Part shown: piece by piece, positions 5,091 through 29,859 of the stretch
Numbering within the stretch: the stretch's first letter is position 1
How the letters are laid out: each line of letters begins with the position of its first letter
Source of the DNA: Promethearchaeia archaeon
Lineage (GTDB): Archaea > Asgardarchaeota > Lokiarchaeia > Sigyniarchaeales > SOKP01
Assembly: GCA_046483985.1 (NCBI GenBank)
Contig: JAWOCD010000108.1
Coordinates: 1 to 30,286 of the forward strand
Length of the DNA: 30,286 bases
Direction: 5' to 3'
Made by a program: the position numbers and the translations under genes
Notes under the pieces: model-generated
What the model was told of the DNA's origin: nothing
Databases searched by the model: none
What the model saw: the letters and a program-made list of their open reading frames with translations, nothing else

Positions 5091-6134
5091 ATGTCGGAAA
5101 ATAAAGAAATTACCTCAAAGAATAAAAAAGTTATCTCAAAGAAAGGAATAATTTTGATGGGTATTGCAGCTTTAGGAATATTCCTTGTTGGCATAACATT
5201 ATGGCTTTTGGATTATAATGAAGCGTTTTATTCTGATGATCCAACCCTTCGTGCCATCTTTGGTGCGATTACCTTCACGGGAGACCCTATTTTTCTGGTT
5301 CTGTTAGTTGCCCTGTTTTATATCGGATATGATAAAAGATACGCAAAAAATCTGGCTGTAAGTTTGTTGTTCTCTGTGTATATAAATGGGCTTGTCAAGG
5401 AAATTGCGCAGGATCCAAGACCCGGGACGAACGTCAAAAATGGAGAACTTATGGAAAGTGGTTACGGATTTCCCAGTGGTCATTCGCAAAATGCCATAGC
5501 AACTTGGGGGTATATTGGACATCATTTTAAAGATAAATCCAAACCATTTGTAATCCCTATTATATTATCGGCATTTATTTTCTTGATTGCAGTTTCTCGG
5601 TTAATTTTGGGTATGCATGATTTGGATGATATTATCGGAGGATTATTGATCGGTATCGGTTATATACTCGTATTTATCCATTTAGAGCCGAAGATATCCC
5701 CAAAACTGGCCCAACTAAGTTTAGGCATAAAATTATTCCTCGCCATTGTTATCCCTATTGGATTATTTCTTTTAGGTACGCTATTTTTCCCCACTGCAGG
5801 AGTAGCCCCTGAGACTTACGATCTAATAGGGGAAAGAATTCCTTCAGAATTTGCCGATGCGGGAGGATTTGCTCAAGCTGGTGGAGCACTTTTAGGTATT
5901 TTAACTGCATATATACTTGAAAAGGAATATGTAGATTATCAACCTTCTGAGTTAAATATTAAATGGAAGGCGATTAATCTCATAATAGGCCTTGCAATAT
6001 TATTTACCCTCTACCTAGGATTGGAAATGGTTTTAAGAGGAAATGTGATATTCAGGTTTGCTCGATATGCGATAGTGAGCTTCATTTTAGTCTTACTAGT
6101 CCCTATGCTGTTAAAAAAAATAAATCACAAGTAA
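5091..6134 (+). CDS. PAP2-family integral membrane phosphatase
   Basis: All three PAP2 motifs are present: KEIAQDPRP (KX6RP), PSGH and SRLILGMHDLDD (SRX5HX3D); multiple TM helices. Confidence 0.92.
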   Translation: MSENKEITSKNKKVISKKGIILMGIAALGIFLVGITLWLLDYNEAFYSDDPTLRAIFGAITFTGDPIFLVLLVALFYIGYDKRYAKNLAVSLLFSVYINGLVKEIAQDPRPGTNVKNGELMESGYGFPSGHSQNAIATWGYIGHHFKDKSKPFVIPIILSAFIFLIAVSRLILGMHDLDDIIGGLLIGIGYILVFIHLEPKISPKLAQLSLGIKLFLAIVIPIGLFLLGTLFFPTAGVAPETYDLIGERIPSEFADAGGFAQAGGALLGILTAYILEKEYVDYQPSELNIKWKAINLIIGLAILFTLYLGLEMVLRGNVIFRFARYAIVSFILVLLVPMLLKKINHK

Positions 6135-7586: not shown

Positions 7587-9026
7587 TTAGAGCAAATAGG
7601 TGTTGTGATACCAATCTTCAAAATTTTCAAAGCGCTCGGATTTATACTCTTTTAATAACTCTCCGTTGGCATCTTCCTCGATTTTCCTAAAAAGTTTCTC
7701 ATATATTGATTCGTTTCCCTCTATAATATTGGTATTCCATTCTGGATCATCCCTCAGATCAAATAACTTTCTATCCTTCTTGGTATTCCTTGTAATGAGG
7801 GCATATTTATCGTCTTTATAGGCCGTCCATAGACTCATTCCACAAGTCATGTAATCTCTGCCCTCAAGTACTGCATCGGTATTATCCACGAAAACGGAAA
7901 GATCTTTTCCCTCAACTTTTTTTGGCTTCTCTTTTCCAAGGAAGCCGTAAATTGTTGCTAATAAATCGTGATCATATACATAGGAATTATCAATCCGAAT
8001 GGGTCCATTTATATTACCAGGGGGTTTTATTATTAACGGGATATCGATTAATTCGGGATACATAAATTTTGGCACCTTTCCAATCGCTCCATGCTCGCCC
8101 AAGCCATGCCCGTGATCGCTAATTAAGATAATTAACGCATCTTCATAAAATTCCAACTCTTTTAACTGATTGATGAAATAACCGAACCACGCATCACATA
8201 AGGAAACTTCTCCAGCATAACATGCTTTCATATTCCGTAATTCTTCTGAGCTGATCAAATTTACGCTTTCTCCATAGATTGGCAGAATAATTTTGTTTCC
8301 CGAATACTCTTTATCTTTATACAGATTATAGTAATTCTCCGGAGGATCCCATGGTTCATGCGGATCAAACTCATCAATAATACAGAAATGGTTTGCTGTA
8401 TCCTTACTTTCTTTAATTGATTGAATTGCTCTTTTAAAGGTCTTCGCGGGCATATAATCCTCCTCTGACTCCCAGTCTTGTTTATTAGTAAAATATTTCT
8501 TAAGCAGCGTCTTTTGAATGCGCAAAGCGAATCGATTCTCTTTGGTTTTCTTCGGAAGATTGTTTTTCATTAATTTATTCAGTTCTGAACGCCTTCCTTT
8601 CCATGAGGGTTTATATTTATCATATTCATGACCACGAACGAAATGCCATTCATCAAATCCTAATTGAAAGTTCATATTAGGCTTAAATTGATGATAGGTA
8701 CTTGTGATAAAGGAAGTGAGATGTCCTGCTTTATTTAAATACTCTGAAATATGGATCTGATCATGAGGGATGGGGGTCCATCCTGGGGACTCAACGAAAT
8801 CATCCGTACGCACCTTTAAATCTTGATTAAAAGGAAAAGTTCGAATTCCTGTATGAATTGCCCTTCGCACGGGGATTGTCGGTAAACTTTCTGGATATGC
8901 TTTATCAAACACAAGTGAATCTTTTGCAAATTCATCAAAATTCGGCGTCTGAATCCAATCGTTTCCATAAATCTTGCCCGTATGGTCTTTTCTAAGGGTA
9001 TCGAAGACAATAAGAAATATTTTCAT
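7587..9026 (-). CDS. Sulfatase-like hydrolase (alkaline phosphatase superfamily) with Thr at the nucleophile position
   Basis: IVFDTLRKDH, QTPNFDEFA, TIPVRRAIHTG, FDPHEPWDPP, ISDHGHGLGEHG, IPLIIK, LFDLRDDPEW. Confidence 0.88.
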   Translation of the reverse strand: MKIFLIVFDTLRKDHTGKIYGNDWIQTPNFDEFAKDSLVFDKAYPESLPTIPVRRAIHTGIRTFPFNQDLKVRTDDFVESPGWTPIPHDQIHISEYLNKAGHLTSFITSTYHQFKPNMNFQLGFDEWHFVRGHEYDKYKPSWKGRRSELNKLMKNNLPKKTKENRFALRIQKTLLKKYFTNKQDWESEEDYMPAKTFKRAIQSIKESKDTANHFCIIDEFDPHEPWDPPENYYNLYKDKEYSGNKIILPIYGESVNLISSEELRNMKACYAGEVSLCDAWFGYFINQLKELEFYEDALIILISDHGHGLGEHGAIGKVPKFMYPELIDIPLIIKPPGNINGPIRIDNSYVYDHDLLATIYGFLGKEKPKKVEGKDLSVFVDNTDAVLEGRDYMTCGMSLWTAYKDDKYALITRNTKKDRKLFDLRDDPEWNTNIIEGNESIYEKLFRKIEEDANGELLKEYKSERFENFEDWYHNTYLL

Positions 9027-9114: not shown

Positions 9115-10533
9115 GTGAGACCCGTGGATCAAAATCAACAAAAAGAAAAAGGTAAATTCAACAAGAGATATCCGCTGCGGATAATCGCGTCCTATGAGCT
9201 TGGTATGCTAATTTGGATGATGATGAATCAGATTTTTGTGCAGCAAACACAATATTATTACCAAAATGTAATAGGATTAGGAGCCGGGCTTATTGCTTTG
9301 GCTTTTATCATCTATACTATCTTTAATATGTTTAACGATCCTATAATTGGACATTTCTCGGATAAATCTACCCGTTTTCGCGAAAAATGGGGAAAACGAT
9401 TTCCATTTATCATGATGGGGATAATCCCGTTCTCTTTCACCTTAATTTTTATATTTGGAGCGCCTAAAGTCAGTCAAGTCGGTCCGTTAGCTGTATTCTT
9501 TTGGTTACTCTTTTTTATATGTATGTATGATCTCTTCTTTAGCATATTTGATGTTAATCACGGAGCTTTATTCCCCGAAAAATTCAGAAATGATAAAGAT
9601 AGGAAACTGGCAGGGATGGTAGATACCATCTTGGAAACTATTGGTATTTTGCTTGGAATCGTTGTACCAATAATCATTATTGATTCAGTGGGTGGATGGC
9701 TTGGGTATTTTATTCAAGGAATTATCATTTCTATCGTTTGCTTCGTATTTGCCCTCCTTATGATTCCAGGGGTTAAAGAAGATCCAGAAGTGAAAGAGCG
9801 CTATGCGGAAAAAGAGACTCAAGAATCTATTGAGTTCTTCACGGGGATGAAATCTGCCATAAAGGACAAAAATTTAATTGGATTCATGTGTCTTTACACT
9901 GCATATGCAACCACCATGGGTATTCTTATTGCATCTGTTCCCTACTTCGTGGACGATATTTTACACTTGCCAAAGACTGGAGAATTGGTCTTGATTGCTT
10001 ATTTGGTTGCTGTACCTATAACAGCTGGCATATGGTATAAACTTTCGTTTAAAATTGGAATAAAAAACGTTACCCTTATTGGTGCTATCATTCTCTCCTC
10101 TATGGGGTTACCTCTATTATTTGTACCCGCGGACCCCAGCGGATTAGCCCTTTTTTTGATTGTATTATTTTTGGCGGGATTAGTAGATGGAGCAATAATT
10201 AGCATGAAATTTCCGGTATTTTCTAGTATTGTCGATGTGGCAACTATTGAGTCAGAGAAACATGAAGAAGGGTTATACAAGGGGATCTTTACCTTTTTTC
10301 AGAGACTGGGTATTACCATCCGAGTTGTTATTTTTTGGATAGTCCAAGCACTCAGCGGATATGACCCTACCACTCCGAATACTTCAGCAGAATTATGTGG
10401 ATTACGTATTCAAGTTTCTATAATCCCTATGATTATTATGTTCTTTGGAATTGTTATTTTCTGGAGATTTTATCAAATCTCTCGCTCAGATTTAGAGAAA
10501 AATTTAGAGGAATTGGACAAGATGGGTTTATGA
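9115..10533 (+). CDS. MFS transporter, glycoside-pentoside-hexuronide (MelB/GPH) family
   Basis: About 12 TM helices; NDPIIGHFSDK, WGKRFPF, ALFPE, EGLYKGIFTFF. Confidence 0.88.
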   Translation: MRPVDQNQQKEKGKFNKRYPLRIIASYELGMLIWMMMNQIFVQQTQYYYQNVIGLGAGLIALAFIIYTIFNMFNDPIIGHFSDKSTRFREKWGKRFPFIMMGIIPFSFTLIFIFGAPKVSQVGPLAVFFWLLFFICMYDLFFSIFDVNHGALFPEKFRNDKDRKLAGMVDTILETIGILLGIVVPIIIIDSVGGWLGYFIQGIIISIVCFVFALLMIPGVKEDPEVKERYAEKETQESIEFFTGMKSAIKDKNLIGFMCLYTAYATTMGILIASVPYFVDDILHLPKTGELVLIAYLVAVPITAGIWYKLSFKIGIKNVTLIGAIILSSMGLPLLFVPADPSGLALFLIVLFLAGLVDGAIISMKFPVFSSIVDVATIESEKHEEGLYKGIFTFFQRLGITIRVVIFWIVQALSGYDPTTPNTSAELCGLRIQVSIIPMIIMFFGIVIFWRFYQISRSDLEKNLEELDKMGL

Positions 10534-11763: not shown

Positions 11764-11983
11764 TCGGTCTTCACGGAATTAAATTTCTATAATTATACAA
11801 TAATTATACCATTATATCCATTATATTTAAAACAGAGAAGGGAAGGAATTTTTAATATTTTAAAAAATAAACAATTTGCCTTCCATTTGGACCTTTCAAG
11901 ATTTTATTTGGCAGCATTTCAACCCTCATGTTTTTAGAACAATTTTATTATTCTTTTTAGCGCAATTTCTTAATTTTCTTAAA

Positions 11984-12143
11984 AGATGTCGGCTTGGCGC
12001 CGATTTAAATGCTGCCTGTAATATTGCCAGAGCGCATCCACAAGCAGCTTATATAAAAGTCGTTAGTGTGTTCCGTCTGTCGTTTAACTCGATCGTCATT
12101 TAGCGATCCTCTGAGGATCTGTCGCACTTGTCCTGATATGTCA
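11984..12143 (+). pseudogene. tnpB: tnpB 3' remnant (RuvC-III motif) plus a downstream hairpin
   Basis: The frame encodes RCRLG-ADLNAACNIAR, matching the TnpB C-terminal xADxNAAxNI motif. It is followed by the hairpin GATCCT-CTG-AGGATC. The upstream part of the ORF is AT-rich and not TnpB-like. Confidence 0.6.
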
Positions 12144-12197
12144 TAGATTTTTTCTGACTGTGAAAAATTTATTAGCATTCAGCTCAAAGGTTAATTA

Positions 12198-14105
12198 ATG
12201 AATATAACAAAAATTAACCGAACTATTTTTATTTGTTTGATAATATCTCCATTACTTATTCTCTCTTGCACGGGATACGTAAATTCTAATGTGAATGCTG
12301 AGGAAAGCGAAGGTTTTCAATCCTACGAGCATGATTTAAAACAAGGTTTTATCAATGAATCTGCGGACGATCGGGAAATCTTTTATTGGATTCAAGTTTC
12401 GGACATTCACCTCGATATGTCAGAGAAAGGAAAGGAAACTCGAGATAATTTTAAGAGCTTTTGTAACGAGACCATCCCAGAAATTTCGCCAGGTTTTGTC
12501 ATTTCTTCTGGAGATAACGTAAATGGCCCATTAAATAACTCTGAGAGACCAAAACAACATTACGAAAGCGAAGAGGAACATCAATTCTTTCACAATACCT
12601 TGGAAGATAATGGATTAAACTCATCCTTTTATTATTCGAGTATTGGGAATCACGAGACCTATAACCTCGGAACGGATAGGAGCTTATTTAAGGAGTATAT
12701 ACGAAATAGCACTAAATATTATTTCGATGTAGATGCTCCGAGCGGCACATATCGGTTTGTTTCTTTAGATACTACTCAAAATGTGGGACTGGGAAACCCC
12801 TTTGACTATTGGGGCGAGATGAAGAGCAATAGGTTAAATGAGATCGAAACACTCATCGAAGAGTCTCCGGAAACCATCGATCAACTCGTCTTCTTTGGTC
12901 ACCATCCAATTCATCATATATATTCTGGGCGTTCTGATTCGGGAAAAACATTCAAGGATTTAATTGCGGAAAGTGATGCGGCAACTTATCTATGCGGACA
13001 TACACATACCAAAAATACCTATTGGAATCATGGTGACTTTACGGAATTAGTAAGCCCCGCTTTTACAAATGGGGGACATTTTCGCATTCTTGCCATTGAT
13101 AACGGATTACATTCTTTTTCGGAACAGATTACGGGAGAATGGCCTGCGATAGTGATTACCAATCCGGTTTCGAACCTCTTTTACAATGAACAGGCTGACT
13201 TTAGTAGTATGGTAAACGGCGATGAGATCCGTGCCCTTATATTCGATTCAAATCCAATTACAGAGGCTTATGTTGAGATTGATGGAGATCGGATCGGGGA
13301 AATGACTAATCAAAGTGATAACTTGTGGACACTTTCCTATGACACCGAGAAATACAATTCTGGGGATCATAATCTTAAAGTGGTTGCAAAATCGGAGAGT
13401 GGGGAATTAAGTCAATCTATAACGTTTAATCTTGATGATTTTGCTCCTGTTCAAACGGATGGCATGACTAAATATCTTATCGGTGTAAATATATTTATAC
13501 TCTTATCTGTATTGCTGGCGATTTGCTTTCTTTTGCTTTATTCTTTTTCCCTCTTTCCGAAATTGTATTATTATTCCAGCGAAAAGAGGCAAGAAGCACT
13601 TTCTGAGATAAACGTGGAAGATTTCGATGATAAGGGATTTATCCAACGCCATTTCCACAAGAAATGGGTTGAAGCAGCGAAACTACCCACCGCCTCATGG
13701 TTGGCACTGGTCCTACCTCCTGCCTATCTATTACTCGGTCCGATATTTATTGGGCCGTTCGTGAATTCTACATGGGGCACTTTATGGCTTTATGGCTTTT
13801 CCATTTTAGGGAGACATGTGCTTGATTTTTATTCGCTAATTTGGTCTGCTGGGTTCCTTATATTGTTTGGCATTGTCGAAGGATTTACCATTCGAGGAAA
13901 TCAACCACATCCATCTAAATGGCGCTATGTACCCATGATCTTTTACTTCCTGGCATGGATTGCGGTGATTTGGTTTTATTCTGGGTACTTTACATTGCCA
14001 GTGATGTTGGTCAATCCGATGATACTCATTTCATTTGGAGTTGGGATTTTTCTAATTTGGCAATCAAGGAAGAACCATTCCCGAGAAGGGTCAAAACGTG
14101 GATAG
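12198..14105 (+). CDS. TMEM62-like membrane-anchored calcineurin-like metallophosphoesterase (signal/TM + MPP + Ig-like + multi-TM C-terminus)
   Basis: MPP motifs SDIH, SGD, GNHE, GHHP and CGHTH; then FRILAID, WPAIVITNP, IRALIF, VEIDG, GDHNLKVVA, followed by 5-6 TM helices. Confidence 0.85.
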   Translation: MNITKINRTIFICLIISPLLILSCTGYVNSNVNAEESEGFQSYEHDLKQGFINESADDREIFYWIQVSDIHLDMSEKGKETRDNFKSFCNETIPEISPGFVISSGDNVNGPLNNSERPKQHYESEEEHQFFHNTLEDNGLNSSFYYSSIGNHETYNLGTDRSLFKEYIRNSTKYYFDVDAPSGTYRFVSLDTTQNVGLGNPFDYWGEMKSNRLNEIETLIEESPETIDQLVFFGHHPIHHIYSGRSDSGKTFKDLIAESDAATYLCGHTHTKNTYWNHGDFTELVSPAFTNGGHFRILAIDNGLHSFSEQITGEWPAIVITNPVSNLFYNEQADFSSMVNGDEIRALIFDSNPITEAYVEIDGDRIGEMTNQSDNLWTLSYDTEKYNSGDHNLKVVAKSESGELSQSITFNLDDFAPVQTDGMTKYLIGVNIFILLSVLLAICFLLLYSFSLFPKLYYYSSEKRQEALSEINVEDFDDKGFIQRHFHKKWVEAAKLPTASWLALVLPPAYLLLGPIFIGPFVNSTWGTLWLYGFSILGRHVLDFYSLIWSAGFLILFGIVEGFTIRGNQPHPSKWRYVPMIFYFLAWIAVIWFYSGYFTLPVMLVNPMILISFGVGIFLIWQSRKNHSREGSKRG

Positions 14106-14121
14106 TTATCATCTAATAATA

Positions 14122-14180
14122 TTTTTAGTTTTATTTTTTATTTTTTTATTTTTTTATTTTTTTATTTTTTTTATTTTTTA
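14122..14180 (+). terminator. Tandem (T5-8 A)n T-tract array; likely an archaeal oligo-U terminator
   Basis: About 8 consecutive T-runs separated by single A, directly after the stop of 12198..14105. Confidence 0.6.
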
Positions 14181-14247
14181 ATCTGTGGAGCCTATTACCG
14201 CTTATAAACTTATGACAGAAGGAGTTAAACAGACGATCTAAAAAGTA

Positions 14248-28683: not shown

Positions 28684-29859
28684 TTATAATCTATCTCTCT
28701 TCTCTTCTACTGGTAACTTCTTTTTCCTATTAAGGACCTTTTTTTTTTGCTTTACGCTGTCTCTTCTCATTCTTTCAATTATTTCAGAAAAATGGGTTGC
28801 TAAACGACTGATTTGTGCCTTTAATGAAGCATTTCTCCCAATTTTTTCATAAATAAATCTCCACAAGAGAGTTAATATAGCGGTAGCGGGAAGAATAAAG
28901 AACCATATTTCGAACGCATTAAGCATCTGAGGAAAGAGGAAAAAGAGAACATGGTGGCCTAAGAATATTGAAAACGAATAGAAAGAATAGTAAATAAATA
29001 ATCGATAACTTTTTTCTAGTTGGTAAACTTTGTCGTCCTTTAACCATAGGAGCAAAGCAAGGCCAAGTAATTCAATTCCAAATATAAATAAATGGGAAGA
29101 AAATGTCTCTTTCGATAAAAATGCGGGAAAATAAAAGAGAATCCCAAATATAGTTAGAAAAAAGCCTCCTATTATGTAAGGTAAATATACTTTTTTTTTT
29201 AACTGTAATTTTCGTTTTTCGGGGGGTTCAACATAAAAAATCTCGTATAATGTATCTCCAATAACGGTCCCCATTAATAAGAATGGAAAGTATCCTAAGA
29301 TTGGATTCTGGCTCTGAACATTATATAAGATGTGGTATAATAGTCCAAATCCGTTTGCCTGGCTTTTAAATGGCAGCAGCCACAAAAAAATAAATTCGTT
29401 GCCAATCCAGATTGAAAAGGCGAATATTACCCTGAGGGTCCGTGATACCTTTAATAGGGGCCAAGCTAAAATTAGCGAAATTCCAATCGTTTGAAGTACA
29501 AACCATAACCAAATACCTTTAATGCCCATATCGACTAATCCAAATAATACCGCTCCAAAATTCCAAATAAAAGAGACTACTAAAATTAAGAGTGCCCTAA
29601 ACATGTATTCATCTCTAATAGATTGTTTACTAAACGCATGGGTATGCTTATAACTGGACATTTTAAACCGATAGGAGAGTGCTGCACTTATTCCGGATAT
29701 AAGCAGGAATCCTCCTCCTCCAAACGGTGCCCCCAAGTTCCAAAAAATCTCATATAACCAATAATCGCCTTCAGTTATCCACCATTCAATTTGATGACCG
29801 ACAGCCATATAGAAAATACATAGCCCACGAAAGATGTCAATTGATTTTAAGCGTCTCAC
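28684..29859 (-). CDS. DUF1624 / heparan-alpha-glucosaminide N-acetyltransferase-like membrane protein
   Basis: RLKSIDIFRG-x4-MAVGH, FLLISGIS, VLQTIG, about 10 TM helices. Confidence 0.82.
   Translation of the reverse strand: MRRLKSIDIFRGLCIFYMAVGHQIEWWITEGDYWLYEIFWNLGAPFGGGGFLLISGISAALSYRFKMSSYKHTHAFSKQSIRDEYMFRALLILVVSFIWNFGAVLFGLVDMGIKGIWLWFVLQTIGISLILAWPLLKVSRTLRVIFAFSIWIGNEFIFLWLLPFKSQANGFGLLYHILYNVQSQNPILGYFPFLLMGTVIGDTLYEIFYVEPPEKRKLQLKKKVYLPYIIGGFFLTIFGILFYFPAFLSKETFSSHLFIFGIELLGLALLLWLKDDKVYQLEKSYRLFIYYSFYSFSIFLGHHVLFFLFPQMLNAFEIWFFILPATAILTLLWRFIYEKIGRNASLKAQISRLATHFSEIIERMRRDSVKQKKKVLNRKKKLPVEEKRDRL

What the first reader, a model, noticed from the sequence alone, without database searches (positions are those of the whole stretch)
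12198..14105. Apparent full-length archaeal counterpart of eukaryotic TMEM62 (possible eukaryotic signature protein)
Seen: signal/TM anchor, metallophosphoesterase, Ig-like domain and multi-TM tail. Compared from memory with human TMEM62, the match extends well beyond generic MPP motifs and is colinear. Examples (this protein vs TMEM62): IFYWIQVSDIHL vs IFWGLQISDIHL; FCNETIPEISP vs FCSETIDIIQP; YLCGHTH vs YLCGHLH; FRILAIDNGLHSF vs YRIFAFDHDLFSF; GEWPAIVITNP vs GKWPVVLITNP; YNSGDHNLKV vs YSSGTHNIEV; YLLLGPIFIG vs YTVLGPWFFG. TMEM62 is a poorly characterised eukaryotic membrane protein. Inference: an archaeal origin of this family and a tractable prokaryotic model for it. I cannot say whether this has already been reported.
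Basis: partly seen in the sequence, partly recalled or inferred. Interest (0 to 1): 0.8.

Follow-up and report, generated by a model that had tools for sequence, protein, structure and literature searches.

The report
Asgard archaeal full-length TMEM62 homologue
This Asgard (Lokiarchaeia-type) archaeon encodes an intact, end-to-end relative of TMEM62, a eukaryotic membrane enzyme of unknown function, which makes it a candidate new eukaryotic signature protein and a prokaryotic model for studying TMEM62.

Summary
Window 12198-14105 (+) is an intact 635-aa ORF. It encodes an N-terminal anchor, a metallophosphoesterase with all five metal motifs, a TMEM62-type Ig domain and a 5-helix membrane tail.

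- **Closest relatives.** In an exhaustive search of 1.84 billion proteins, the best matches after about 20 close archaeal clusters are eukaryotic TMEM62 (animals, Capsaspora, Pelomyxa, Anaeramoeba, Stygiella).
- **Full-length match.** BLASTP aligns it end to end with oyster TMEM62 (2e-45). The tail alone matches eukaryotic tails (hhalign 98%, E 5e-14). An AF2 model (pLDDT 93) superposes on chordate TMEM62 over 560 residues (TM 0.77).
- **Phylogeny.** Eukaryotes are monophyletic (97-99). The window's clade A groups with them against a second Asgard paralogue clade and a tail-less clade that includes bacteria. The gene therefore does not nest within eukaryotes, and bacteria have only the ectodomain.
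- **Caveats.** The tree is unrooted. Clade A is in only 4 of 161 genomes of its class and in none of 239 genomes from other Asgard classes, so vertical descent versus ancient transfer is open. The function is untested.
- **Prior notice.** I found no paper linking TMEM62 to archaea. An October 2026 preprint lists an unnamed Asgard-eukaryote metallophosphoesterase. This scan's first readers noted TMEM62-like genes 16 times in at least 11 genomes.

The parts
12165..12174 (+). TATA-like box (AAATTTATTA), about 28 nt upstream of the ATG. This would give a leaderless or near-leaderless archaeal transcript (inferred).
   Evidence: Read directly from the sequence. No experimental transcription start site is available.
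12198..14105 (+). Complete gene for the 635-aa TMEM62-like membrane metallophosphoesterase (P0001, Asgard clade A).
12198..12284 (+). N-terminal signal anchor (aa 1-29). K5 and R8 precede the helix, which predicts N-terminus inside.
   Evidence: Hydropathy scan; AF2 helix 3-29.
12372..13100 (+). Calcineurin-like metallophosphoesterase domain (aa ~59-301) with metal and catalytic residues D69, H71, D106, N151, H152, H235, H268 and H270.
   Evidence: Pfam PF00149, residues 66-271. These residues are invariant columns in 26 sequences; after adding the DxQ-type clade B2 (58 sequences) only H71 drops out. Foldseek matches to Rv0805, PAP and GpdQ.
13107..13427 (+). TMEM62-type Ig-like beta-sandwich domain (aa ~304-410).
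   Evidence: Pfam PF24384, residues 314-407, 28.4 bits against a cutoff of 27. AF2 strands 304-410.
13467..14099 (+). TMEM62_C-like membrane tail (aa 424-634). It has five transmembrane helices and a K/R-rich cytoplasmic helical loop at 446-503.
   Evidence: hhalign against eukaryotic tails: 98.2%, E 4.7e-14. ESM Atlas structure hits at TM 0.68-0.75 go only to eukaryotic TMEM62 clusters. AF2 model of the tail alone, pLDDT 93.9.
13746..13820 (+). Extracytoplasmic beta-hairpin insert (aa 517-541), immediately after the invariant G-P515 motif, between tail helices 2 and 3.
   Evidence: AF2 strands 517-541. P515 is invariant and G527 nearly invariant across Asgard and eukaryotic sequences.
14113..14184 (+). 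Long oligo-T tract directly after the stop codon. It is a likely archaeal intrinsic terminator, so the gene is probably monocistronic.
   Evidence: Sequence read; repeat family D1.

Best explanation
This is a genuine chromosomal gene of a Lokiarchaeia-type Asgard archaeon. It encodes a full-length homologue of eukaryotic TMEM62, and it belongs to the prokaryotic clade ('A') closest to the eukaryotic family.

Shown here:
- An intact ORF with a complete binuclear metallophosphoesterase site.
- A TMEM62-type Ig domain.
- A membrane tail that is homologous in sequence profile and predicted fold to the eukaryotic TMEM62 C-terminal domain.
- A eukaryotic clade that is monophyletic and grouped with clade A.

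Inferred topology, from the positive-inside rule:
- N-terminus and C-terminus in the cytoplasm.
- Catalytic and Ig domains outside the cell.
- The 446-503 loop (8 K/R) and the 560-577 loop inside.
- The conserved beta-hairpin outside, next to the ectodomain.

Inferred mechanism (about 35-40% likely): the enzyme is an ecto-phosphoesterase held rigidly on its own five-helix module. It hydrolyses a phosphomono- or phosphodiester at the outer membrane face, most likely on a membrane-embedded or surface-bound substrate such as a lipid head group, glycerophosphodiester or lipid-linked glycan. The tail and hairpin would position or present the substrate rather than merely anchor the enzyme.

Inferred evolution (about 55-60% likely): eukaryotes obtained TMEM62 from an Asgard source carrying a clade-A-like gene.
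For: Homology:
- An exhaustive phmmer search gave 761 hits. After about 20 close archaeal clusters (E down to 1e-129), the next hits are eukaryotic TMEM62 at 1e-41 to 1e-22, and several alignments run to query residues 597-627.
- BLASTP to oyster TMEM62 gives a single HSP, 19-629 against 8-622, E 2e-45.
- The tail-only profile comparison of clade A against eukaryotes gives 98.2%, E 4.7e-14, over 143 columns.
- The full AF2 model (pLDDT 93.3, pTM 0.90) matches a chordate TMEM62 cluster at TM 0.77/0.74 over 560 residues and a Parabasalia cluster at 0.75/0.71. Bacterial clusters match only residues 54-429.
- Eukaryotic TMEM62 proteins hit this ORF as their best match in the window's genome.

Phylogeny:
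- IQ-TREE with LG+C20 gives Euk 97*, clade A 100*, and the split (A+Euk)|(B1+B2) 100*.
- The ectodomain-only tree gives the same split at 99.9.
- An AU test rejects A+B2 as one group, p 3e-7.

Archaeal context:
- The closest relative (73% identity) is from a Promethearchaeia MAG.
- The genome is 97% complete.
- Clade A also occurs in Asgard genomes G133, G134 and G144.
- The neighbouring genes are densely packed and prokaryotic, and the DUF763 and PALP genes are syntenic with that MAG.
- A TATA-like box and an oligo-T terminator flank the gene.

Catalysis: D69, D106, N151, H152, H235, H268 and H270 are invariant in 58 sequences. H71 is invariant when clade B2 is left out.
Against: - The Pfam TMEM62_C model (PF24394) does not hit this protein even at E<=1, and the Ig_TMM62 hit is only 1.4 bits above its cutoff.
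- The tree is unrooted. 'Clade A is sister to eukaryotes' needs the root to lie outside A+Euk.
- Only about 13 of the 'eukaryote' rows were named. The rest were labelled by their clade.
- The AU group was chosen after the tree had been seen.
- Distribution is very patchy. Clade A is in 4 of 161 genomes of the class and in 1 of 135 genomes of the window's own family. The wider family was not found in 239 genomes of other Asgard classes, apart from one weak hit at 3e-17.
- The function is entirely inferred. No assay, no conserved operon and no solved homologue of the tail exist (best Z 7.7, which is noise level).
Confidence: 0.8

Rival explanations
1. Ancient horizontal transfer from a stem or early eukaryote into Lokiarchaeia, rather than an Asgard origin. 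On this reading clade A is a eukaryote-derived gene that later diversified in a few archaeal lineages.
For: The distribution is extremely patchy. The clade A tail is in 4 of 161 genomes of the class and in only the window's genome among 135 of its family. The family is absent from 239 genomes of other Asgard classes. A dispersed repeat lies directly upstream of the gene, which suggests a dynamic locus.
Against: - The nearest outgroups of A+Euk (B2, and the part of B1 represented by G125, G127 and G128) are themselves Asgard. A eukaryote-to-archaeon transfer therefore needs the root on or within the eukaryotic branch.
- Clade A is deep: 20 clusters at 50% identity, with members about 35% identical to the window protein.
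- Eukaryotes are monophyletic at 97-99.
- The gene has no introns and has archaeal-type expression signals.
Confidence: 0.17
2. A functional rival. The protein is a general phosphate-scavenging ecto-phosphatase or phosphodiesterase that acts on soluble organophosphates, and the five-helix tail is only a membrane anchor.
For: - The closest solved relatives are broad-specificity enzymes: purple acid phosphatase (profile E 4e-12), and Rv0805, GpdQ and SMPDL3A by Foldseek.
- Tail-less forms exist in bacteria and in Asgard archaea, so the ectodomain can work without the tail.
- MFS transporter genes lie next to two clade A genes and near this one.
Against: - The tail is conserved from Asgard archaea to animals, including an invariant G-P motif and an extracytoplasmic beta-hairpin. 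That is more conservation than a simple anchor would need.
- A pTM of 0.90 for the whole protein suggests a fixed arrangement of ectodomain on tail.
- The neighbourhood is not conserved.
Confidence: 0.3
3. An artefact. The gene would be eukaryotic contamination or a mis-binned contig in the MAG, or the resemblance would come only from generic metallophosphoesterase motifs plus hydrophobic composition.
For: The genome is a MAG with 4.8% estimated contamination. Identity to eukaryotic TMEM62 is only 23-29%.
Against: - The 30-kb contig is densely packed with prokaryotic genes.
- Close homologues occur in independent Asgard MAGs and metagenomes.
- An identity of 23-29% rules out recent eukaryotic DNA.
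- The Ig domain, the tail profile and the whole-protein fold each match TMEM62 specifically.
Confidence: 0.02

Closest known systems
Eukaryotic TMEM62 (Pfam architecture: Metallophos PF00149 + Ig_TMM62 PF24384 + TMEM62_C PF24394)
   Same: - The domain order is the same end to end: N-terminal anchor, phosphoesterase, Ig, one helix, a charged cytoplasmic loop, then a four-helix bundle carrying the G-P motif.
- All catalytic motifs are shared.
- The alignment is colinear at full length.
- The whole-protein predicted fold matches at TM 0.77.
   Different: - Identity is only 23-29%.
- Motif III is GNHE rather than the GNHD of most eukaryotes.
- The Pfam TMEM62_C model does not detect the tail.
- The gene is prokaryotic, intron-less and single-copy, and the same genome carries a divergent paralogue.
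- The eukaryotic family itself has no known function.
Asgard clade B2 paralogues (for example G000:C126:46388-48175, 605 aa, in the same genome)
   Same: The architecture is the same, with a multi-helix tail. The tails are related (hhalign 91%, E 1e-6). Both clades are Lokiarchaeia-type.
   Different: - B2 has DxQ instead of DxH in metal motif I.
- B2 lacks the long cytoplasmic loop.
- Its tail barely matches eukaryotic tails (30%).
- It groups with the tail-less B1 clade, not with eukaryotes.
- Some B2 members have lost the tail (about 460 aa) and are followed by an unrelated ABC-2-like permease gene.
Bacterial secreted phosphoesterase + Ig_TMM62 proteins (clade B1b; Desulfobacterota, Acidobacteriota, Gemmatimonadota and others)
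   Same: They share a homologous phosphoesterase and TMEM62-type Ig ectodomain. The structural match covers residues 54-429.
   Different: They have no multi-helix tail. They often carry extra Big_1 or Big_7 domains. They sit on the other side of the central tree split.
Purple acid phosphatase, Rv0805, GpdQ and SMPDL3A/acid sphingomyelinase-type metallophosphoesterases (solved structures)
   Same: They share the catalytic fold and the dinuclear metal motifs. Several of them cleave phosphodiesters or lipid head groups.
   Different: Only the roughly 250-residue catalytic domain matches, at 11-17% identity. None has the TMEM62 Ig domain or tail. The GDxxY tyrosine ligand of purple acid phosphatases is not present here (that motif is cited from my own knowledge).

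Membership tests
TMEM62 family | Calcineurin-like metallophosphoesterase domain with all five metal-binding motifs | tested here: met
   PF00149 at 4.3e-10. D69, H71, G105-D106, G150-N151-H152, H235 and G267-H268-x-H270 are invariant columns.
TMEM62 family | TMEM62-type Ig-like domain (Pfam PF24384) directly after the catalytic domain | tested here: met
   28.4 bits against a gathering cutoff of 27, residues 314-407. The margin is small, but close relatives also pass and AF2 shows a beta-sandwich at 304-410.
TMEM62 family | Hit to the Pfam TMEM62_C model (PF24394) | tested here: not met
   There is no hit at E<=1 for P0001, or at E<=0.01 for clade A members P0010 and P0011. Eukaryotic members score 35-48 bits. 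One named fish TMEM62 (P0164) also fails this model.
TMEM62 family | C-terminal multi-helix tail homologous to the eukaryotic TMEM62 tail, tested by methods more sensitive than the Pfam HMM | tested here: met
   hhalign on the tails alone gives 98.2%, E 4.7e-14, over 143 columns. The only ESM Atlas structure hits above TM 0.5 for residues 418-635 are eukaryotic TMEM62 clusters, at 0.68-0.75.
TMEM62 family | Colinear full-length similarity and reciprocal best match with named eukaryotic TMEM62 | tested here: met
   Forward search. Reverse search within the window's genome. Full-length fold match over 560 residues.
TMEM62 family | Orthology: the window's clade is the sister group of the eukaryotic clade | tested here: inconclusive
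   The unrooted split (A+Euk)|(B1+B2) has 100/99.9 support, and the AU test gives p 3e-7. Sisterhood holds for a midpoint root or any root outside A+Euk. No reliable outgroup was available.
Eukaryotic signature protein (Asgard-eukaryote shared family) | Full architecture present in Asgard archaea and eukaryotes but not in other prokaryotes | tested here: met
   Among the best 150 of 761 hits in 1.84 billion proteins, the forms with a tail are clade A, clade B2 (named Asgard) and eukaryotes. Bacterial relatives lack the tail. Hits beyond rank 150 were not seen. Most clade A representatives come from unnamed metagenome contigs.
Eukaryotic signature protein (Asgard-eukaryote shared family) | Broad eukaryotic distribution consistent with presence in the last eukaryotic common ancestor | tested here: met
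   Named members come from Metazoa, Capsaspora, Pelomyxa (Amoebozoa), Anaeramoeba and Parabasalia (Metamonada), Stygiella (Discoba) and Chytridiomycota. A Streptophyta cluster has the ectodomain only.
Eukaryotic signature protein (Asgard-eukaryote shared family) | Presence across Asgard archaea, especially the Heimdall/Hod lineage | tested here: not met
   Of 400 Asgard genomes, 33 match, and all strong matches are in the window's class. The clade A tail is in 4 of 161 class genomes. There are no strong matches in 239 genomes of other classes. One B2 protein is labelled 'Hodarchaeota' by NCBI, which I did not verify.

The most novel reading that the evidence does not exclude
TMEM62 is an overlooked eukaryotic signature protein. 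On this reading the whole enzyme-plus-tail machine arose in Lokiarchaeia-type Asgard archaea and duplicated there into clades A and B2. Eukaryotes took up the clade A form before their last common ancestor. The conserved tail and beta-hairpin would form a membrane-substrate presentation module of a fold not yet solved, so the archaeal protein could be used to find the function of human TMEM62.
Probability: 0.4. Interest if true: 0.7.

Novelty: new member of a known kind. Interest (0 to 1): 0.55.

Why it matters
TMEM62 is conserved from animals to metamonads and jakobids, yet it has no known function. The literature I could search mentions it only in expression and GWAS lists. A compact, intron-less archaeal homologue with the same architecture, modelled at high confidence, gives a tractable protein for biochemistry and structural work. 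It also adds a membrane ecto-enzyme to the set of genes shared specifically by Asgard archaea and eukaryotes. Its odd distribution (Lokiarchaeia only, rare, two deep paralogue clades, and a bacterial offshoot of the ectodomain) bears on which Asgard lineages, or which gene transfers, contributed membrane-associated genes to early eukaryotes.

Tried and rejected
- **Word-indexed homologue search with a mixed alignment.** It returned only the close relatives and was not informative.
- **The search for related loci with the mixed alignment.** It failed because there was no conserved stretch. I spent the one genome-contig scan on clade B1 instead, so clade A was not scanned across all prokaryotic species that way.
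- **Solved-structure search for the tail (pdb_via_wide).** The best Z was 7.7, which is noise level for helical bundles, so no family can be named.
- **Foldseek against the PDB.** It matched only the catalytic domain.
- **Split-gene test.** I asked whether the permease gene downstream of the short B2 forms is a detached TMEM62 tail. hhalign probability was 0.1%, so I rejected the idea.
- **Conserved operon.** The neighbourhoods differ. MFS adjacency appears in only two other loci.
- **AU test with the C20 mixture on 56 rows.** It did not finish. I replaced it with LG+G4 on 28 rows.
- **Sequencing runs.** A freshwater-sediment DNA run holds identical fragments and may be the source sample. A salt-lake metatranscriptome library holds one identical 164-nt contig at 13885-14046. 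This does not prove transcription, and uncovered parts mean nothing.
- **Rfam scan of the upstream spacer.** No hits.
- **Upstream repeat as the end of a tnpB element.** The two other repeat copies I checked are not next to a TnpB gene, and Pfam did not recognise the 79-aa open frame, so this reading is unsupported.
- **Supplementary tables of the 2026 preprint.** They are not held, so I could not tell whether its 'metallophosphoesterase' cluster is TMEM62.
Full report
**The observation.** The window carries one long ORF at 12198-14105 on the + strand, with an ATG start and 635 codons. Pfam finds a calcineurin-like phosphoesterase domain (66-271, 4e-10). It also finds the TMEM62 Ig-like domain PF24384 (314-407), at 28.4 bits against a curated cutoff of 27. 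A hydropathy scan gives one N-terminal helix and five helices after residue 427. The described architecture is therefore real.

**Closest relatives.** An exhaustive phmmer search of 1.84 billion cluster representatives gave 761 hits.
- The first ~20 are full-length proteins 34-52% identical to the query. One close relative (73%) is annotated as a Promethearchaeia MAG metallophosphoesterase.
- There is then a sharp drop in score, to proteins 24-31% identical at E 1e-41 to 1e-22.
- The named ones among these are TMEM62 of a thrips, a spider, a fish and an oyster, a Capsaspora protein, 'TMEM62-like' of Pelomyxa, several Anaeramoeba proteins and a Stygiella transcript.
- BLASTP aligns the window protein with oyster TMEM62 in a single HSP, 19-629 against 8-622, E 2e-45. 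It aligns with fish TMEM62 over the ectodomain and first tail helix at 1e-44.
- In the reverse direction, fish and Pelomyxa TMEM62 hit this ORF as the best match in the window's genome (1e-43 and 1.5e-33). A paralogue on another contig scores far lower (1.5e-16 and 2.6e-14).

**Does the homology include the membrane tail?** The Pfam TMEM62_C model does not detect the tail, though it also misses one named fish TMEM62. I therefore tested the tail by itself.
- A profile of 12 clade A tails against a profile of 14 eukaryotic tails gives hhalign probability 98.2%, E 4.7e-14, over 143 columns. The match covers the end of the cytoplasmic loop and the four last helices.
- AlphaFold2 with a 58-sequence alignment gives a confident model of the whole protein (pLDDT 93.3, pTM 0.90). 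It shows an N-terminal helix, an alpha/beta phosphoesterase, a beta-sandwich and a long helix (432-458). Short cytoplasmic helices follow, then a helix ending in the invariant G-P515, a beta-hairpin pair (517-541) and three more helices.
- Against the ESM Atlas, this model superposes on a chordate TMEM62 cluster over 560 residues (TM 0.77/0.74) and on a Parabasalia cluster (0.75/0.71). The best bacterial cluster covers only residues 54-429.
- Searching with residues 418-635 alone, the only clusters above TM 0.5 are eukaryotic TMEM62 clusters from Chytridiomycota, Parabasalia and Chordata.
- No solved structure resembles the tail above noise. The PDB matches only the catalytic domain: Rv0805, purple acid phosphatases, GpdQ and SMPDL3A.

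**Family structure.** Trees of the best hits resolve four groups. I used FastTree on 135 rows, IQ-TREE LG+C20 on 56 rows, and FastTree with 20 proteins taken from Asgard genomes.
- **Clade A** is the window's clade. It has the DxH motif and the long cytoplasmic loop, and members are about 620-650 aa.
- **Clade B2** has the full architecture, but motif I is DxQ and the loop is missing. Named members are Lokiarchaeia, Promethearchaeota and one 'Hodarchaeota'. The window's genome has one at G000:C126, 605 aa. Some B2 members have lost the tail.
- **Clade B1** has the ectodomain only. One half is Asgard (G125, G127, G128). The other half is bacterial: Desulfobacterota, Acidobacteriota, Gemmatimonadota and others.
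- **The eukaryotes** form the fourth group.

Eukaryotes are monophyletic (97-99) and clade A is monophyletic (99-100). The central split is (A+Euk)|(B1+B2), with support 100. The same split appears at 99.9 with only the 370 ectodomain columns, so it is not driven by the tail. An AU test rejects joining A with B2 (p 3e-7, LG+G4, 28 rows; I chose the group after seeing the tree). The tree has no reliable root. With a midpoint root, or any root outside A+Euk, the eukaryotic family is nested among Asgard lineages with clade A as its sister.

**Distribution.**
- Of 400 Asgard species genomes, 33 have a family member. All strong matches are in the window's class.
- That class has 161 genomes. The clade A tail profile hits only four of them: the window's genome, which is the only carrier among 135 genomes of its family, and three of 14 genomes in a sister family.
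- The other 239 Asgard genomes have nothing, apart from one weak generic hit.
- On the eukaryotic side, named members span Opisthokonta, Amoebozoa, Metamonada and Discoba. This is consistent with presence in the last eukaryotic common ancestor.
- The patchiness on the archaeal side is the main reason to keep ancient transfer open, in either direction, as an alternative to vertical descent.

**Is it a real archaeal gene?**
- The contig is 30 kb of densely packed, intron-free prokaryotic genes.
- The DUF763 and PALP-ACT genes upstream are syntenic with the Promethearchaeia MAG contig that carries the 73% homologue.
- A TATA-like box lies about 28 nt before the ATG, and a 70-nt oligo-T tract follows the stop.
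- At 23-29% identity to eukaryotes, recent contamination is excluded.
- An identical 164-nt contig occurs in a metatranscriptome library. That is at most a weak hint of expression.

**Likely mechanism.** The points below are inferred, not shown.
- K/R counts put the N-terminus (+2), the 446-503 loop (+8), the 560-577 loop (+3) and the C-terminus (+5) in the cytoplasm. The catalytic and Ig domains and the beta-hairpin would then be outside.
- All metal ligands are intact, so the protein should be an active binuclear phosphoesterase.
- The tail is conserved across roughly two billion years, it has an invariant G-P motif and an external hairpin, and the whole protein is modelled as one rigid unit.
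- I therefore favour an ecto-phosphoesterase that works on a substrate in or on the membrane, with the tail positioning that substrate (about 35-40%).
- The rival is a simple anchored scavenging phosphatase (about 30%).
- No conserved operon helps to decide.

**Prior knowledge.**
- Full-text searches found no paper that connects TMEM62 with archaea in a meaningful way.
- A preprint of 29 October 2026 lists 'a metallophosphoesterase' among Asgard-eukaryote-exclusive structural clusters not previously reported as ESPs, without naming it in the held text. It may be this family.
- Public databases label the archaeal proteins only as 'metallophosphoesterase', with a precomputed Ig_TMM62 hit.
- First-stage readers of this scan made 16 similar, unchecked notes in at least 11 genomes, two of them on this genome's B2 paralogue.

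**Verdict.** This is a new, prokaryotic, full-length member of the known but uncharacterised TMEM62 family. It is interesting as a candidate eukaryotic signature protein and as an experimental handle, with origin and function still open.

Noticed in passing
window 11980-12170 (spacer upstream of the gene): A dispersed repeat. About 80-190 nt of this spacer recur at 14 other places in the same genome, at 73-84% identity. The open frame running into it ends in ...GADLNAACNIA..., which from memory resembles the C-terminal RuvC motif of TnpB. However, Pfam does not recognise it, and two other copies I checked are not next to a TnpB gene. Rfam finds nothing.
   Followed up: partly
G000:C126:46388-48175 (locus L097), same genome: A second TMEM62-like gene (605 aa, clade B2) with the full architecture. 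It has DTQ instead of DxH in metal motif I and lacks the long cytoplasmic loop.
   Followed up: yes
L105 1767-4759 (G179) and L106 1561-4628 (G206), related Asgard genomes: Short B2 forms of about 455-465 aa, with the ectodomain and one helix. Each is followed on the same strand by a gene for a polytopic, weakly ABC-2-like membrane protein of about 540 aa. In G179 the two genes overlap by 4 nt. The permease is not homologous to the TMEM62 tail.
   Followed up: yes
Loci L003-L069 (bacterial genomes): The phosphoesterase + TMEM62-type Ig ectodomain is widespread in Desulfobacterota, Acidobacteriota, Gemmatimonadota and other bacteria. In the tree these bacteria sit next to tail-less Asgard proteins (G125, G127, G128), which suggests an old Asgard-bacteria transfer of the ectodomain.
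   Followed up: partly
window 7587-9026 (-), 28684-29859 (-) and 5091-6134 (+): A sulfatase with an N-sulphoglucosamine sulphohydrolase C-terminal domain, a protein with an HGSNAT_cat (heparan-alpha-glucosaminide N-acetyltransferase-like) domain, and a PAP2 lipid phosphatase all lie in the same 30-kb window. In animals the first two families include lysosomal heparan-sulfate-degrading enzymes.
   Followed up: no
L100 2524-3930, L102 1230-2738, and window 9115-10533: An MFS transporter gene lies directly beside two other clade A genes, co-directional with an 87-nt gap in L100 and divergent in L102. Another lies two genes upstream in the window. It is absent next to the closest homologues, so the pattern is possibly chance.
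   Followed up: partly
L099 (JGI metagenome contig carrying clade A protein P0010): The neighbours include a GH38 alpha-mannosidase, a WD40 beta-propeller, a NIPA-like Mg transporter, a VTT/DedA-domain protein and an LRR protein. This is a eukaryote-like gene set on a prokaryote-style contig.
   Followed up: no
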